Assembly (NCBI GenBank): GCA_023245035.1
Contig: JAHFLD010000003.1
Span: 121,736-154,738 of the forward strand
DNA from: Candidatus Harrisonbacteria bacterium
Lineage (GTDB): Bacteria; Patescibacteriota; Minisyncoccia; UBA6257; 1-14-0-10-40-38
Length of the DNA: 33,003 nt
Direction: 5' to 3'
Below, in pieces: positions 3,667 through 27,184 of the stretch (positions are counted from its first letter, which is position 1; every line of letters starts with the position of its first letter). The position numbers were made by a program, and so were the translations under genes. The notes beneath the pieces were generated by a model. It was not told where the DNA came from. It made no database searches and saw only the letters and a list, made by a program, of their open reading frames with translations.

Positions 3667-3738
3667 GCGCCCTTAGCTCAGTGGTAGAGCGTTTCATTGA
3701 CATTGAAAAGGTCGGAGGTTCGATCCCTCCAGGGCGCA
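3667..3738 (+). tRNA. tRNA-Val(GAC)
   Basis: Acceptor GCGCCCT/AGGGCGC, anticodon arm TTTCA-TTGACAT-TGAAA, T-arm GGAGG-TTCGATC-CCTCC. Confidence 0.95.
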
Positions 3739-3741
3739 CCT

Positions 3742-3865
3742 AGATTATAAAATACCTTTAAGGTATTTTTAGTCTTATACTGGAGGGATCGAACAGTGGA
3801 GGGGGTCGAGGACCGCGTTTGGTCTCCCGTGTTGGAGATTATCCAGAACCATCGGTTCTGAAAAG
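3742..3865 (+). repeat. tRNA-trailer structured element, copy A (hairpin, anti-T-arm, conserved core)
   Basis: AT-rich hairpin 3742-3775; CTGGAGGGATCGAAC (3780-3794) is the exact reverse complement of tRNA-Val 3718-3732; core 3791-3865 is similar to 25811-25886 on the minus strand. Confidence 0.75.
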
Positions 3866-24712: not shown

Positions 24713-24979
24713 ATGTCCGGTCAAGAAATCACCGCGGCGGTGCCGGCTTCGTCCGCTCTTAACGGGCGTACGATTCTTGGCGTTTTTAAGAAGACGGTTC
24801 GCGAGGGCGGTTCGTCTTGCGACACCCTTCACTTTTTGCTTGATAGCAATGTTGAGCTGGTGATTGGTTCGCAGTTTGTTTTGGGCGCCGATCATGGCGG
24901 TTACACCGTGGCGACGGTTTGGATGAAGACCGGCGAGCATGGCCCCAATGATCGAGGAGAAGTTCTGTTTCGAGAGTAG
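24713..24979 (+). CDS. Hypothetical protein (orphan, 88 aa)
   Basis: ORF with SD, promoter and terminator. Confidence 0.6.
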   Translation: MSGQEITAAVPASSALNGRTILGVFKKTVREGGSSCDTLHFLLDSNVELVIGSQFVLGADHGGYTVATVWMKTGEHGPNDRGEVLFRE

Positions 24980-24987
24980 GTGTTTCT

Positions 24988-25013
24988 AGCCTCGTACTTT
25001 ACGGGGCTTTTTT
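24988..25013 (+). terminator. Intrinsic terminator
   Basis: AGCCTCGTA/TACGGGGCT stem followed by a T-tract. Confidence 0.7.
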
Positions 25014-25046
25014 ATATGCTGATCAACTTCTTCGGCAAATTAAATT

Positions 25047-25088
25047 TGGTGGACCTAGCCAGAATTGAACTGGCGACTCCTCGTTGCC
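25047..25088 (-). pseudogene. Isolated tRNA-Ala-like 3' half with CCA
   Basis: Minus strand GGCAACGAGGAGTC-GCCAG-TTCAATT-CTGGC-TAGGTCC-ACCA: 3' anticodon arm, intact T-arm, Ala-type acceptor strand (U70); no own 5' half. Confidence 0.7.
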
Positions 25089-25121
25089 CCGATGGACTTT
25101 GGTGGGCTAACACTGTTTATG

Positions 25122-25193
25122 TGGACCAAGGGAGGATTGAACTCCCGACCTCCTCATTGCAAATGAGGCGCTCTACCACTGAGCTATTGGCCC
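25122..25193 (-). tRNA. tRNA-Ala(TGC)
   Basis: GGGCCAA/TTGGTCC acceptor with G3-U70, anticodon arm CCTCA-TTTGCAA-TGAGG; CCA not encoded. Confidence 0.95.
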
Positions 25194-25330
25194 ACCAAAG
25201 TCATACGGGATTGTGTTTTGTGACTTCGCTGCGCTTCAGATAAAACGGGAACAAACGAGGCGTAATCGATTTTTACAGTATCAAAATTCGCGCACAGGCG
25301 CAATTTTTTGGTTTGTGATAGAATCGGCTT

Positions 25331-25741
25331 ATGGAAAAATTTCAACCGGAGAGTGACAATGAATCCATCAGAGAAAATCAGTGGGGTTTGGGGCGGGTTG
25401 ATGTTTCGTCGCGCGGTCAAGATGTTGTTGATGCTAACGAAGAGACCGCCAGTTATCTTGAAGATCTTCATGACGCCATGAAGTCGGCTGGCGCCGATGA
25501 AGCCGCTAAAGAAGCTTTAGAACTTTTTATTCATCTTTCATCAGAAAGTTCCGCTGGCGATGTAACTGCGGCGGTTGATGATTTGCTTTCTCGTCGGCAA
25601 AGCGCTTTGGCTTCGATGATGAACGAGGATCCGACTGCTTCGGTGGAAGCTAATTATTTAAATGGTCTTAGAAAGCGGCGCGCGAGGGAAAAAATAGAAG
25701 CAGGTAAGTCGCTTGATGACCGAACTAATTTTGTTGGGTAA
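25331..25741 (+). CDS. Acidic hypothetical protein
   Basis: 136-aa ORF; TGATAGAAT extended -10 six nt before ATG. Confidence 0.65.
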   Translation: MEKFQPESDNESIRENQWGLGRVDVSSRGQDVVDANEETASYLEDLHDAMKSAGADEAAKEALELFIHLSSESSAGDVTAAVDDLLSRRQSALASMMNEDPTASVEANYLNGLRKRRAREKIEAGKSLDDRTNFVG

Positions 25742-25778
25742 GCGTGTTTTTTTGCTAAATTTTCCGAAAGTCAGATTG

Positions 25779-25896
25779 TGGTGTCCCCGCGAGGAATCTC
25801 ACGCGCTTTGCTTTTAGAAACCGACGGTTTCTAATCTCTTCCTGAACGGGAAACCGCAGGCGGTTTCCCGACCCCTTCCACTGTTCGATTCCTCGC
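25779..25896 (-). repeat. tRNA-trailer structured element, copy B (anti-T-arm, conserved core, duplicated tRNA 3' end)
   Basis: 25883-25896 is a 14-bp perfect inverted repeat of tRNA-Arg 25921-25934; hairpins 25847-25870 and 25814-25834; 25779-25798 repeats the tRNA 3' end with CCA. Confidence 0.8.
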
Positions 25897-25913
25897 AAGA
25901 AATTTACTATTTG

Positions 25914-25985
25914 TGCCCCCGCGAGGAATCGAACCTCGATTTTTTCCTTAGGACGGAATTGCTCTATCCATTGAGCTACAGGGGC
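25914..25985 (-). tRNA. tRNA-Arg(CCT)
   Basis: GCCCCTG/CGGGGGC acceptor, D-arm GCTC-AATGGATA-GAGC, anticodon loop GTCCTAA, T-arm CGAGG-TTCGATT-CCTCG. Confidence 0.9.
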
Positions 25986-26035
25986 GTTTTGCGTTAGTAT
26001 CAGATTGCCACATTTTGTTAGACTTAGGAAGTTTT

Positions 26036-26125
26036 GGAGGGTTGGCAGAGTGGTCTAACGCGCCGCACTCGAAATGCGGTTGGGGAGAAATCCCCTCGGA
26101 GGTTCGAATCCTCCACCCTCCGCCA
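26036..26125 (+). tRNA. tRNA-Ser(CGA)
   Basis: GGAGGGT/ACCCTCC acceptor, G73, CCGCA-CTCGAAA-TGCGG, long variable arm, encoded CCA. Confidence 0.95.
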
Positions 26126-26238
26126 GGACAATTTTTTATCGGCATGATACGAGTAACTACGAGCGAGCGGTGGCTAGAGGGCTTTGCGCCTAAGATTTGT
26201 TAGAGTAATGTTTGTTAATCAATTAGGAAAAATAAACT

Positions 26239-26679
26239 ATGGCAACAATCAATCCTCACATTAATTTCAACGGCAATGCCGAAGAGGCGTTTACATTTTA
26301 CAAGTCAGTTTTTGGCGGAGAATTCGCAAAAGTTATGCGCTTCAAAGACCTTTCAAGTCCTGAATTTCCCGTAGCGGAGAAAGAGGCGAATAAAATCATG
26401 CACATTGCTTTGCCTATTGGCAAAAATAATGTATTGATGGCCAATGATGTTCCGGAGAGTATGGGACGAACAAATGAAAACGAAAACAGAAGCAAAATTG
26501 CTATCAGCGCGGAAAGCAAAGAAGAGGCGGATAGATTATTTAACGGGCTTTCAGTAAATGGCAAAATCGAAATGCCCATCGGCGACAGTCCTTGGGGTTC
26601 ATATTTTGGCATGTTTAGAGACAAGTATGGCATTGAATGGATGGTGGATTTTGATCCAAAATATAGCGGGCAGAGGTAA
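26239..26679 (+). CDS. VOC/glyoxalase-family protein (PhnB-like)
   Basis: INPHINFNGNAEEAFTFYKSVFGG, IMHIAL, PWGSYFGMFRDKYGIEWMV. Confidence 0.9.
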   Translation: MATINPHINFNGNAEEAFTFYKSVFGGEFAKVMRFKDLSSPEFPVAEKEANKIMHIALPIGKNNVLMANDVPESMGRTNENENRSKIAISAESKEEADRLFNGLSVNGKIEMPIGDSPWGSYFGMFRDKYGIEWMVDFDPKYSGQR

Positions 26680-26737
26680 CTAAACAAAGTATGAACGAAA
26701 AGAATGCCCAGAACGAAAAACGTGAAGAAATAAATTC

Positions 26738-27184
26738 ATGCAAAAAATAACAACATTCCTTTGGTTTGATGATCAGGCGGAAGAGGCAATGAATTTTTAC
26801 GCTTCAATTTTCAAAAATTCAAAGGTCACGCATGTCACTCGCGGCCCGAATGGCGCGGTATTTTGGGTGTCGGCAGATATCGCGGGACAAACATTTTACG
26901 CGCTAAACGGCGGACCGAAATTCAAATTTACCGAAGCCATTTCACTCTTTGTTACCTGCGAAGATCAGACAGAGGTAGATGACTTGTGGAGTAAGCTTGC
27001 GGCAGACGGCGGAAGCGAGAGCATGTGCGGCTGGCTCAAAGATAAGTATGGTCTCTCGTGGCAGATTATACCCAAAGCACTAAGTGAGTATTTGGCAAAA
27101 GATTCATCGGGAAAAGTAATGCAGGCGATGCTTGGCATGAAAAAAATTGACATTTCCGGACTCAAAAAAGCTTTGGAATCTTAG
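26738..27184 (+). CDS. VOC-family protein (PhnB / 3-demethylubiquinone-9 3-methyltransferase-like)
   Basis: KITTFLWFDDQAEEAMNFY, ALNGGPKFKFTEAISLFV, CGWLKDKYGLSWQI, MQAMLGMKKIDI. Confidence 0.9.
   Translation: MQKITTFLWFDDQAEEAMNFYASIFKNSKVTHVTRGPNGAVFWVSADIAGQTFYALNGGPKFKFTEAISLFVTCEDQTEVDDLWSKLAADGGSESMCGWLKDKYGLSWQIIPKALSEYLAKDSSGKVMQAMLGMKKIDISGLKKALES

What the first reader, a model, noticed from the sequence alone, without database searches (positions are those of the whole stretch)
25779..25934. tRNA-trailer element: host-matched anti-T-arm, conserved two-hairpin core and duplicated CCA end (tRNA-Arg copy)
Seen, reading the minus strand after tRNA-Arg(CCT): a short AT spacer; GCGAGGAATCGAAC, the exact 14-nt reverse complement of this tRNA's own T-arm; the core AGTGGAAGGGGT-CGGGAAACCGC-CT-GCGGTTTCCCG...TTAGAAACC-GTC-GGTTTCTAA; and GATTCCTCGCGGGGACACCA, a copy of the tRNA from the T-loop to the 3' end with one substitution and a CCA that the gene itself lacks. 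The same core follows tRNA-Val 22 kb away, where the antisense segment instead matches the Val T-arm, so a constant scaffold carries a variable, target-matched segment. Established: integrative elements often cross over in the T-loop and duplicate the tRNA 3' end, but they carry an integrase and are not known to me to carry an antisense copy of the target. Inference: either a roughly 135-nt non-autonomous tRNA-targeting element with a guide-like segment mobilised in trans, or a pre-tRNA switch in which the anti-T-arm pairs alternately with the tRNA or with the downstream decoy copy.
Basis: partly seen in the sequence, partly recalled or inferred. Interest (0 to 1): 0.88.

Follow-up and report, generated by a model that had tools for sequence, protein, structure and literature searches.

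The report
Guide-bearing mini insertion element in tRNA genes
This stretch is one copy of a small, protein-less insertion element, widespread in Patescibacteria, that sits in the 3' part of tRNA genes, carries a short antisense copy of the exact spot it occupies, and does not seem to have been described before.

Summary
After tRNA-Arg(CCT) lie a spacer, a 14-nt exact antisense of the tRNA's T-loop and T-stem, a two-hairpin core, and a second copy of the tRNA 3' end with CCA. The same layout follows 10 of this genome's 47 tRNA genes in full and 3 more in part. A model of the core hits 29 of 61 genomes of the order. A same-genus genome has an empty site at this tRNA, which shows that the distal copy is the original 3' end. 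The junction lies in the 3' half of the T-loop (positions 56-61). The element ends in a constant T-loop-like GTGAGATT. Where the two sense copies differ, the antisense follows the live tRNA (64 of 76 positions). Other copies sit in tmRNA, EF-G 5' ends and protein-gene 3' ends, each with matched antisense and duplication. Stems covary with almost no wobble pairs. Cores group by genome, not by tRNA type. There is no Rfam match and no linked transposase. Best reading: a non-autonomous, target-matched insertion element that acts as a single strand. The enzyme is unknown. The pre-tRNA-switch reading is not supported.

The parts
25913..25985 (-). tRNA-Arg(CCT), intact, ending at C74 with no encoded CCA. 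Its positions 57-74 (25930..25913) are the proximal copy of the duplicated segment.
   Evidence: ARAGORN; Rfam tRNA 62.2 bits; sequence
25921..25934 (-). T-loop plus T-stem 3' strand plus one acceptor base (positions 53-66), the partner of the antisense segment
   Evidence: a 19-bp helix with the antisense is predicted if the two are co-transcribed
25897..25912 (-). 16-nt AT-rich spacer (AAATAGTAAATTTCTT). It has no terminator hairpin in this copy. TAGTAAAT is shared with the spacer of the Gly(TCC) copy.
25883..25896 (-). Antisense ('guide-like') segment GCGAGGAATCGAAC
   Evidence: exact 14-nt reverse complement
25811..25882 (-). Conserved core: purine-rich junction AGTGGAAGGGGT, hairpin 1 (25870..25847), junction TTCAGGAAGAGA, hairpin 2 (25834..25814), AAAAG
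   Evidence: covariance model R1 hit at 50.3 bits; stem covariation; consensus
25799..25810 (-). Right end of the element, CAAAGCGCGTGA. GTGA, together with the following GATT, is the constant T-loop-like terminus. No third hairpin in this copy.
25779..25798 (-). Distal copy of tRNA positions 57-76 with CCA (one G-to-A change). This is the displaced original 3' end and is continuous with the ancestral flank.
   Evidence: alignment with the empty site of a same-genus genome
3667..3740 (+). tRNA-Val(GAC), host of the second copy in the window
3749..3769 (+). AT-rich hairpin between tRNA-Val and the antisense, in the terminator position. The simple terminator scan did not flag it.
   Evidence: sequence; scan found none
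3780..3865 (+). Second copy: antisense CTGGAGGGATCGAAC (3780-3794), a degenerate hairpin 1 (3807-3829) and hairpin 2 (3844-3860). The distal tRNA copy is lost.
   Evidence: 27.3 bits

Best explanation
This is one copy of a family of protein-less insertion elements of about 120-200 bp. They home into the 3' half of the T-loop of tRNA and tmRNA genes, and more rarely into the ends of conserved protein genes. What is shown: the inserted DNA carries, in order, (1) a replacement copy of the target gene's end (tRNA positions about 57/61 to 74), so the gene stays whole; (2) usually a terminator-like hairpin; (3) an 11-15 nt antisense of the uninterrupted target (positions 53 to 63-67, spanning the junction); (4) a conserved core of two to three Watson-Crick hairpins joined by invariant purine-rich strands (GGGGT-CGG..CCG-ugnnGGA); (5) a constant T-loop-like end, GTGAGATT. 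The displaced original gene end follows. What is inferred: the element works as a single strand, DNA more likely than RNA. Its antisense pairs with the target's sense strand, or with the element's own sense end to rebuild a duplex copy of the target. That pairing places the exchange inside the T-loop. The exchange is carried out in trans by a host enzyme. The only tyrosine recombinase in this genome is a Xer-type enzyme, which makes a CTX-phage-like or integron-attC-like single-strand integration the leading candidate. My odds: insertion element with a target-matched antisense, about 0.85. Single-stranded working form, about 0.55. Xer-type folded-strand integration specifically, about 0.25.
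For: Insertion status. An empty orthologous site in same-genus G001 shows the tRNA ending in CCA, directly followed by the flank that in this genome follows the distal copy. The reverse case also occurs: sites filled in G001 and empty here at tRNA-Arg(CCG), tRNA-Lys(TTT) and a translational GTPase gene.

Many copies. There are 11 model hits in this 716-kb genome. The layout follows 10 tRNA genes in full and 3 in part, of 47. Hits occur in 29 of 61 genomes of the order and in 15 of 151 in a phylum sample that includes this genome.

Target matching. The antisense matches its own tRNA at 12.0 of 16 positions on average, against 9.44 for other tRNAs. It is the best match in 24 and tied best in 16 of 70 copies. 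At the discriminating positions 57, 59 and 63 the match is 0.89, 0.86 and 0.77, against 0.50, 0.33 and 0.33 for other tRNAs. Where the proximal and distal copies differ, the antisense follows the tRNA at 64 positions, the distal copy at 6 and neither at 6.

Junction. The distal copy starts with GTGAGATT, GTGAAATT or GTGAAAAT in 28 of 64 copies, and with GTGA in 36 (plus 10 read one base off), whatever the tRNA's own T-loop is. Positions 61-74 are identical in both copies in 45 of 63.

Generality. tmRNA genes are targets in 3 loci. tRNAs that carry group I introns are targets in 2. An EF-G gene 5' end is a target, as are other protein-gene ends with a direct repeat of 23-62 nt and an inverted repeat of 8-13 nt.

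Single-strand structure. Of the stem cells, 98.6% are paired, 15 of 17 pairs show compensatory changes, and 0 of 500 shuffles reach that value. Only 19 G.U cells occur against 22 mismatches in 1550.

Modularity. Cores group by genome (51 label changes against a shuffled mean of 70 and minimum of 62) but not by tRNA type (68 against 66).

No gene of its own. No recurrent neighbouring protein family was found near the core except target genes. The genome holds one Xer-type tyrosine recombinase. No Y1 HUH, TnpB-type or IS110-type transposase was found.
Against: No mobile intermediate was seen. The public runs hold only DNA contigs, with no joint across the element. No enzyme is tied to the element. 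Xer is expected in nearly all bacteria, so it cannot be tested by co-occurrence, and no likeness of the target to a dif site was tested. The antisense is less well kept (10.7 of 13) than the distal sense copy (13.1 of 14). That is odd if the antisense is essential or is freshly made at each insertion. The scarcity of wobble pairs is only weak evidence for DNA over RNA. If cores group by genome because of gene conversion, frequent retargeting need not occur. In the phylum-wide sample, 39 of 92 copies lack a tRNA upstream. Several recurring contexts of the core (three groups of loci) are not explained by this model. How the replacement gene end and the antisense are acquired for a new target is unexplained.
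Confidence: 0.5

Rival explanations
1. The core is a functional small RNA with a 5' antisense guide followed by a scaffold. It acts on the tRNA, the tDNA or another target together with a host protein. The cassette is spread secondarily.
For: The architecture is typical of structured RNAs: variable, covarying stems around invariant junction bases. The antisense lies directly 5' of the scaffold. A hairpin of the terminator type separates it from the tRNA in 44 of 51 copies with a spacer of 25 nt or more, which would make it a separate transcription unit. -10-like words (TATAGT, TAGTAAAT) precede the antisense in some copies (my reading).
Against: G.U pairs are as rare as mismatches, 19 against 22 of 1550 cells. 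No promoter was found by the consensus scan at either window copy. There is no Rfam family. At protein-gene targets the antisense matches gene ends that are being duplicated, which is a feature of insertion rather than of RNA targeting. No RNA run was available.
Confidence: 0.2
2. There is no dedicated machinery. The module spreads and is kept matched by replication template switching and gene conversion. The universal T-loop sequence on both sides of the core (AATCGAAC ... GTGAGATT) serves as microhomology, and quasi-palindrome correction makes the antisense match the neighbouring tRNA.
For: The junction varies between positions 56 and 61. The direct repeat varies from 14 to about 70 nt and sometimes includes the terminator. 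Cores group by genome and not by target. The antisense follows the adjacent live tRNA (64 against 6). No transposase was found. Whole units occur as tandem arrays.
Against: The invariant junction bases and compensated stems are conserved across classes of the phylum, which points to selection on a folded form and is not needed for slippage. The conserved spacer lies between the proximal copy and the antisense, so several ordered template switches would be required. The distribution across distant lineages is patchy, which fits horizontal movement better.
Confidence: 0.2
3. A cis-acting pre-tRNA switch or processing signal: the antisense pairs with the T-arm of the nascent tRNA or with the downstream 'decoy'.
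For: If co-transcribed, the antisense is predicted to form a 19-bp helix with the T-arm and acceptor strand of tRNA-Arg. This particular copy has no terminator in its 16-nt spacer.
Against: The element is absent from the orthologous tRNA of a same-genus genome. A hairpin lies between tRNA and antisense in 44 of 51 copies with a spacer of 25 nt or more. The same architecture occurs at EF-G 5' ends, protein-gene 3' ends and tmRNA. The 'decoy' is the displaced original 3' end, and it decays or is lost in some copies, for example the Val copy.
Confidence: 0.05

Closest known systems
Integrative elements that enter tRNA and tmRNA genes by tyrosine integrases, with crossover in the T-loop (as catalogued by K. 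Williams, 2002; recalled, not read here)
   Same: Insertion in the T-loop region. The element supplies a replacement 3' end, so the gene stays intact. The displaced original 3' end remains as a direct repeat. tmRNA genes and protein-gene ends are also used.
   Different: The element is only 120-200 bp, with no integrase or any other gene. One conserved core serves at least 32 tRNA types. It carries an antisense copy of the target, which classical attP sites do not need. Its stems covary as in a single-stranded structure.
CTX phage and other elements that exploit the host Xer recombinases (abstracts of PMC3442271 and PMC5357621, seen in the search listing)
   Same: No recombinase of its own. 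In CTX, single-stranded DNA is recombined with the double-stranded host site. Here the antisense and the sense end can fold into a duplex replica of the target. A Xer-type enzyme is the only tyrosine recombinase in the genome.
   Different: The target is not a dif site but tRNA T-loops and other conserved sequences. The target-matched arms differ from copy to copy. The size is about 50 times smaller. Use of Xer is untested.
Integron attC sites (abstract of PMC4792948, seen in the listing)
   Same: Recombination sites that are defined by folded single-strand structure rather than by sequence, with variable, compensated stems.
   Different: No integron integrase is present: the best integron-integrase model scores 128 bits against a cut-off of 265. 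There are no cassette arrays. The T-loop words only partly fit the attC end consensus (my reading, recalled consensus).
IS200/IS605 elements and their miniature derivatives (IS608 guide-to-cleavage-site pairing; recalled)
   Same: Single-strand hairpin ends. Target and element end are both read by base pairing with a short internal guide. Protein-less miniature derivatives exist.
   Different: The guide here is 11-15 nt, not 4. A gene end is duplicated. No Y1 HUH transposase or TnpB-type gene is in the genome.
Miniature inverted-repeat, REP-like and hairpin-forming repeat elements (abstracts of PMC3184786 and PMC2800124, seen in the listings)
   Same: Small, multi-copy, gene-less, hairpin-forming and patchily distributed.
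   Different: Site-specific for a conserved gene feature. There is no fixed-length target duplication. The flanking inverted repeat is target-specific, and a replacement gene end is carried.
Guide-bearing mobile RNAs: group II intron exon-binding sites and IS110 bridge RNA (recalled)
   Same: A constant scaffold with a variable segment complementary to the insertion site, spanning the junction.
   Different: There is no ribozyme-size RNA, no reverse transcriptase or IS110 recombinase link, and no Rfam match.

Membership tests
Tyrosine-integrase integrative element at a tRNA gene | Integrase gene inside the element | tested here: not met
   The inserted DNA is about 135 bp with no ORF. The single Phage_integrase hit of the genome lies elsewhere and is Xer-type.
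Tyrosine-integrase integrative element at a tRNA gene | Direct repeat of the tRNA 3' part, with the gene restored by the element | tested here: met
   positions 61-74 are identical in 45 of 63 copies.
MITE | Terminal inverted repeats and a target-site duplication of fixed length | tested here: not met
   There is only an imperfect 8-nt inverted repeat (AATCGAAC / GTGAGATT) extended by target-specific bases. Direct repeats vary from 14 to about 70 nt.
MITE | Many gene-less copies per genome | tested here: met
   11 model hits in this genome and up to 15 per genome among relatives.
IS200/IS605-derived miniature element | A cognate Y1 HUH transposase (or TnpB) somewhere in the genome | tested here: not met
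   PF01797 and PF07282 give no match in a genome that is 99.4% complete.
Xer-exploiting integrative element (CTX type) | Attachment site that resembles the host dif site | not tested
   The dif site of this genome was not located.
Xer-exploiting integrative element (CTX type) | Host Xer present and no recombinase in the element | tested here: met
Xer-exploiting integrative element (CTX type) | Folded single strand that rebuilds a duplex attachment site | tested here: inconclusive
   The closing stem forms in the fold. However, the antisense matches the element's own sense end at only 7.7 of 13 positions, against 10.7 of 13 for the tRNA.
Integron cassette / attC | Integron integrase and cassette array | tested here: not met
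   The integron-integrase model scores 128 bits, below its cut-off of 265. Copies are dispersed at tRNA genes.
Any Rfam RNA family | Match at the gathering score | tested here: not met
   Only tRNA hits in the window and in 15 other loci that carry the core. Nothing covers the core at E up to 10.
Retron non-coding RNA | Adjacent retron reverse transcriptase | tested here: not met
   The one retron-type RT lies at G000:C3:82201-83154, away from any copy. 13 of 29 genomes with the element show no RVT_1 match.

The most novel reading that the evidence does not exclude
A programmable, gene-less mobile element. Its 11-15 nt antisense segment acts as a nucleic-acid guide that picks the insertion site by base pairing with the target's sense strand across the junction. 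A conserved three-way-junction scaffold recruits a host enzyme. The element rewrites both its guide and its carried gene end when it moves to a new target. That would make it a natural, minimal, guide-directed DNA insertion system spread through Patescibacteria.
Probability: 0.3. Interest if true: 0.92.

Novelty: new variant of a known kind. Interest (0 to 1): 0.8.

Why it matters
Site-specific entry into tRNA genes is well known for phages and genomic islands, but those carry their own integrase. Here a 120-200 bp module with no gene occupies about a quarter of the tRNA genes of a 716-kb genome and recurs across the phylum. Each copy carries an antisense copy of its own insertion site next to a deeply conserved folded scaffold. 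If the antisense does direct insertion, this is a very small natural system for guide-directed DNA insertion, and it works with host factors only. Even if it does not, the family matters in three ways. It explains why many tRNA genes in these genomes lack an encoded CCA and are followed by 3'-end fragments. It is a source of mis-annotation and of contig breaks at tRNA genes. It gives a dense set of presence/absence markers for strain-level evolution in reduced genomes that otherwise show few mobile elements.

Tried and rejected
Rfam: at the gathering score the window gives 7 tRNA hits only. A permissive search of 25600-26150 gave nothing on the core. Fifteen other loci that carry the core gave tRNA hits only.

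RNAalifold on a MAFFT alignment of 9 copies recovered only 6 pairs because the alignment was poor. I therefore built model R1 from 3 near-identical copies with a hand-given structure and let Infernal align the rest.

Viral contigs: the core pattern gave 3 stretches, none with the hairpin, so these are chance matches.

Sequencing runs: no RNA holder is listed. Four DNA runs from one study are held as contigs. Laying them on 24800-26800 showed one contig bridging the filled form and no joint across the element. This says nothing about excision.

Enzyme searches in this genome: no Y1_Tnp, no TnpB-type domain and no IS110 transposase.

Co-occurrence across the same 61 genomes, counted by hand from the tables. 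RVT_1 against the element: both 16, element only 13, RT only 7, neither 25. This is a weak link confounded by kinship. All six genomes with 10 or more hits have an RT, but two complete genomes with 6-7 hits have none. Large serine recombinase against the element: both 13, element only 16, recombinase only 11, so no link.

Neighbour clustering: 610 ORFs from loci that carry the core gave no recurrent family next to the core apart from translational GTPases, which are targets. Ile-tRNA-synthetase-like and ABC ATPase clusters lie kilobases away.

The consensus promoter scan found nothing at either window copy.

A pseudoknot between the junction GGCGG and the loop of hairpin 2 was considered by eye and dropped, because the variable positions do not covary consistently.

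A fixed-stagger target duplication (casposon-like, 14-15 bp) was considered and rejected, because direct repeats at other targets are 23-62 nt. Cas1 was not searched.

Literature: five full-text searches listed no paper that describes such an element. I read only titles and the starts of abstracts in the listings. No paper was opened and no supplement was seen. Absence from print is therefore only as good as those searches.

Rows dropped: two weak opposite-strand overlaps of strong hits were removed from the 98 matches. Copies with a tRNA more than 130 nt upstream, and one with an unreadable tRNA, were left out of the 70. 6 of the 70 had no recognisable distal copy.
Full report
**Observation**

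- tRNA-Arg(CCT) runs 25985..25913 and ends at C74 without an encoded CCA.
- A 16-nt AT-rich spacer follows.
- GCGAGGAATCGAAC (25896..25883) is the exact reverse complement of tRNA positions 53-66.
- The core follows, with a perfect 11-bp hairpin (25870..25847) and a 9-bp hairpin (25834..25814).
- GATTCCTCGCGGGGACACCA (25798..25779) repeats the tRNA from position 57, with one change and a CCA.
- The second copy after tRNA-Val (antisense 3780-3794, 15 of 15 complementary to 3718-3732) is also real. There a hairpin lies between tRNA and antisense, and no distal copy remains.

**Scale in this genome**

The window lies in a 716-kb, 5-contig genome that is 99.4% complete and has 47 tRNA genes. A scan of the 450 nt after each tRNA found an antisense run of 11 nt or more at 10 genes and a direct 3'-end copy of 14 nt or more at 11 genes. 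Reading those trailers gives one common layout:
- the tRNA, ending at C74;
- often an A-tract, hairpin and T-tract module;
- a short spacer;
- the antisense;
- the core;
- sometimes a third, variable hairpin;
- ...GTGA;
- the distal tRNA 3' copy.

Ten tRNA genes carry it in full: Ser-GCT, Arg-GCG, Gly-TCC, Asp-GTC, Met-CAT, Gln-CTG, Leu-TAG, Pro-CGG, Val-GAC and Arg-CCT. Three carry it in part: Phe-GAA, Ser-GGA and Thr-GGT. A covariance model of the core (R1: 82 positions, 17 pairs, built from three copies) finds 11 hits in the genome. One of them is not next to a tRNA.

**It is an insertion, and which copy is the original**

A same-genus genome (G001) has the orthologous tRNA-Arg(CCT) locus without the element. 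There the tRNA ends ...GGGCACCA and runs straight into the flank that in this genome follows the distal copy. So the distal, CCA-bearing copy is the original 3' end. What was inserted is the proximal 3' segment plus spacer, antisense, core and GTGA.

The reverse case also occurs. G001 has the element after tRNA-Arg(CCG) and tRNA-Lys(TTT), where this genome is empty. G001 also has two tandem units in the 5' end of a translational GTPase gene, where this genome is empty. Gain or precise loss is therefore recent in both lineages.

**Distribution**

R1 hits 29 of 61 genomes of the same order, with up to 15 hits per genome. It hits 15 of 151 genomes drawn across the phylum, counting this genome, and those hits are scattered over many families. 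Nearly all of the 80 listed record titles name Patescibacteria groups: Parcubacteria/Paceibacteria, Jorgensen-, Lipton-, Colwell-, Nomura-, Moran-, Staskawicz-, Niyogi- and Berkelbacteria, and records labelled Saccharibacteria. 101 pattern matches in these 120 stretches carry the hairpin. The same pattern in IMG/VR gave only 3 chance matches.

**Does the antisense follow the target?**

I fetched the surroundings of hits in 20 other genomes of the order, the bulk from seven of them, and aligned 98 matches to the model. 96 remained after I dropped two weak opposite-strand overlaps.
- 78 of the 96 have a same-strand tRNA within 330 nt upstream. Several of the remaining 18 are cut by contig ends. 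Others follow tmRNA genes (3 loci) or tRNAs interrupted by group I introns (2 loci), which ARAGORN missed.
- In 70 copies with a readable T-arm, covering 32 anticodon types, the antisense matches its own tRNA at 12.0 of 16 positions, against 9.44 for other tRNAs. It is the single best match in 24 and tied best in 16.
- Position by position, complementarity to the own tRNA exceeds that to other tRNAs exactly where tRNAs differ: position 57 (0.89 against 0.50), 59 (0.86 against 0.33), 63 (0.77 against 0.33), 64 (0.56 against 0.24) and 65 (0.63 against 0.27). It fades beyond position 65.
- The effective antisense therefore covers positions 53 to 63-67.

**Where the junction is, and what the antisense pairs with**

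64 of the 70 copies have a recognisable distal copy.
- Its first eight bases are GTGAGATT (17 copies), GTGAAATT (7), GTGAAAAT (4) or close variants. It starts with GTGA in 36 copies, plus 10 read one base off, whatever the tRNA's own T-loop is. GTTC occurs in only 4, plus 3 read one base off.
- This T-loop-like word therefore belongs to the element.
- The part taken from the target begins between positions 57 and 61. Positions 61-74 are identical in the proximal and distal copies in 45 of 63 comparisons, with a mean of 13.1 of 14.
- Where the two copies differ, the antisense agrees with the live tRNA at 64 positions, with the distal copy at 6 and with neither at 6. Within the T-loop alone (positions 57-60) the counts are 54, 5 and 4.
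- Over positions 53-65 the antisense matches the tRNA at 10.7 of 13 and the element's own sense end at 7.7 of 13.

The best partner of the antisense is thus the uninterrupted target, across the junction. With the element's own end it forms a weaker closing stem, in which CGAAC faces GTGAG.

**Not only tRNA**

- The non-tRNA copy in this genome (G000:C4:43898-43977) lies at the 3' end of a protein gene. By my reading the product looks like ribosomal protein L11; this was not tested. The last 18-26 nt of the gene, including the stop codon, occur on both sides, and an antisense of the first 13 nt of that repeat lies directly before the core.
- In other genomes the element sits at the 5' ends of translational GTPase genes, in the DNA that encodes the AHID...GK motif. 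One such gene is EF-G by NCBIfam.
- There the direct repeats are 29-62 nt and include the start codon and some upstream DNA. The inverted repeats are 8-13 nt.
- Two loci show the same arrangement at the 3' end of a small basic protein gene.
- In each case the element carries whatever is needed to keep the target gene whole.
- In the phylum-wide pattern sample, 53 of 92 copies with at least 200 nt of upstream sequence have a tRNA upstream.
- Three other recurring contexts of the core remain unexplained and have no Rfam match.

**Structure**

- On the 97 distinct rows of the 98 matches aligned to the model, 98.6% of 1550 stem cells form standard pairs.
- 15 of 17 pairs show changes on both sides, in 284 cells.
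- No shuffle of 500 reaches any of the five measures, and sliding the partner drops pairing to 44-63%. That alignment was fitted to the model, which favours the structure, but the pair types are informative.
- G.U and U.G pairs total 19 cells, against 22 non-pairs.
- Stems are thus kept Watson-Crick on both strands alike.
- The unpaired joints are the most conserved part: GGGGT before the first stem, the CGG...CCG closing pairs, and GGA after it.
- A third hairpin of variable sequence lies between hairpin 2 and the right end in 43 of 64 copies. 44 of 51 spacers of 25 nt or more hold a strong hairpin. Some of these hairpins share the loop AGCTTGY across different tRNAs.
- Compensated stems mean that a single-stranded form is under selection. 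The lack of wobble pairs leans weakly towards DNA.

**Modularity**

On a FastTree tree of 66 core columns, with the antisense left out, the genome label needs 51 changes, against a shuffled mean of 70 and a minimum of 62. The tRNA-type label needs 68, against 66.2. Cores are therefore more alike within a genome than among copies at the same tRNA type in different genomes. Either the element moves among tRNA types within a genome, or the cores are homogenised by gene conversion. The tree is short and weakly resolved, so only the contrast is used.

**Enzymes**

- The element has no ORF.
- The genome has one tyrosine recombinase. It is Xer-type: XerC model 234 bits, archaeal XerA-type model above its cut-off. 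It lies next to tRNA-Leu(TAG), which carries a copy.
- There is one retron-type reverse transcriptase elsewhere.
- There is one large serine recombinase whose 3' end overlaps tRNA-Asn on the opposite strand, next to genes that by my reading look like a type I restriction-modification system (not tested).
- No Y1 HUH, TnpB-type or IS110-type gene was found.
- Across 61 genomes the reverse transcriptase is only loosely linked with the element, and the serine recombinase is not linked.
- No protein family recurs beside the core.

**Interpretation**

What is shown is a family of gene-less, site-specific insertion modules with a target-matched antisense segment, a carried replacement gene end and a conserved folded core. 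The mechanism is inferred. I rank three routes.

1. Exchange within the T-loop 3' half between the target and a single-stranded form of the element. The antisense either pairs with the target's sense strand or folds back on the element's own sense end to present a duplex copy of the target. The reaction is done by a host enzyme. The precedent is single-strand integration of CTX phage by Xer and of integron cassettes by their integrase (abstracts seen).
2. A guide-plus-scaffold RNA.
3. Spread and matching by template switching and quasi-palindrome correction, with the universal T-loop words on both sides of the core as microhomology.

None of these explains by itself how a new gene end and a new antisense are acquired together. 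The antisense is also less well kept than the distal sense copy, which is an unresolved tension.

The pre-tRNA-switch idea fails for three reasons: the empty orthologous site, the intervening hairpins and the non-tRNA targets. Even so, in this particular copy read-through would be predicted to let the antisense disrupt the T-arm.

**Novelty**

There is no Rfam family, and five full-text searches listed no paper (listings only). I file the element as a new variant of a known kind, the site-specific integrative elements of tRNA genes. There is a real chance that the guide-like segment makes it something new in kind.

Noticed in passing
G000:C3:81780-83154 (outside the window): A retron-type reverse transcriptase (best NCBIfam match is the retron St85 family at 94.5 bits, below its cut-off of 235) lies after tRNA-Gly(GCC). 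About 430 nt of GC-rich, apparently structured non-coding DNA lies upstream. This is probably a retron.
   Followed up: partly
G000:C2:40004-47362 (outside the window): A 501-aa large serine recombinase has its last 14 codons antisense to the 3' half of tRNA-Asn(GTT). Three large ORFs follow, which by my reading look like a type I restriction-modification system (not tested). This looks like an island integrated at tRNA-Asn.
   Followed up: partly
G000:C3:18850-19360 (locus L012): tRNA-Lys(CTT) is followed by two further tandem copies of its last roughly 40 nt plus a roughly 60-nt spacer, with no core. This is a different kind of 3'-end repeat.
   Followed up: no
Several copies: G000 Arg-GCG and Gln-CTG (inside hairpin 1), G000 Gly-TCC (third-hairpin position), L027, L048, L095, L096: A GC-rich palindrome of about 22 nt, of the form CCCTGCCTGCCGGCAGGCAGGG, is nested at different places inside or beside the element. 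It looks like a second, even smaller, palindromic insertion sequence.
   Followed up: no
Trailers of CCA-encoding tRNA genes in G000: The word GTAGG recurs 1 nt after an encoded CCA at four places: Leu-TAA, Lys-CTT, and the distal copies of Arg-GCG and Met-CAT. Its meaning is unknown.
   Followed up: no
Loci L107, L136, L144, L159, L209, L118; L113, L129, L147, L161, L180, L185, L200, L201; L214, L219, L128, L130, L163: The same core occurs in three other recurring contexts that have their own conserved flanks and no tRNA upstream. One group lies just upstream of varied ORFs or of a tRNA 5' end. No Rfam match. Not understood.
   Followed up: partly
Loci L030 and L096: The target tRNA genes here are interrupted by group I introns (Rfam Intron_gpI at 67 and 52 bits), so ARAGORN missed them.
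   Followed up: partly
61 genomes of the order: All six genomes with 10 or more core hits have an RVT_1 match, against 7 of the 32 genomes with no hit. However, two complete genomes with 6-7 hits have none. This may only reflect how rich each genome is in mobile elements.
   Followed up: partly
G000 tRNA genes: About 16 of 47 tRNA genes encode CCA. Most of the others still have C at position 74 followed by an A-rich stretch, the same boundary at which the element's carried 3' segment ends.
   Followed up: no
Spacer hairpins of G000 Arg-GCG, Met-CAT and Pro-CGG, and of G001 Met: The terminator-like hairpin between tRNA and antisense is homologous across different tRNAs and keeps a loop AGCTTGTC. 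It may therefore be a part of the element with a role of its own, not only a terminator.
   Followed up: no
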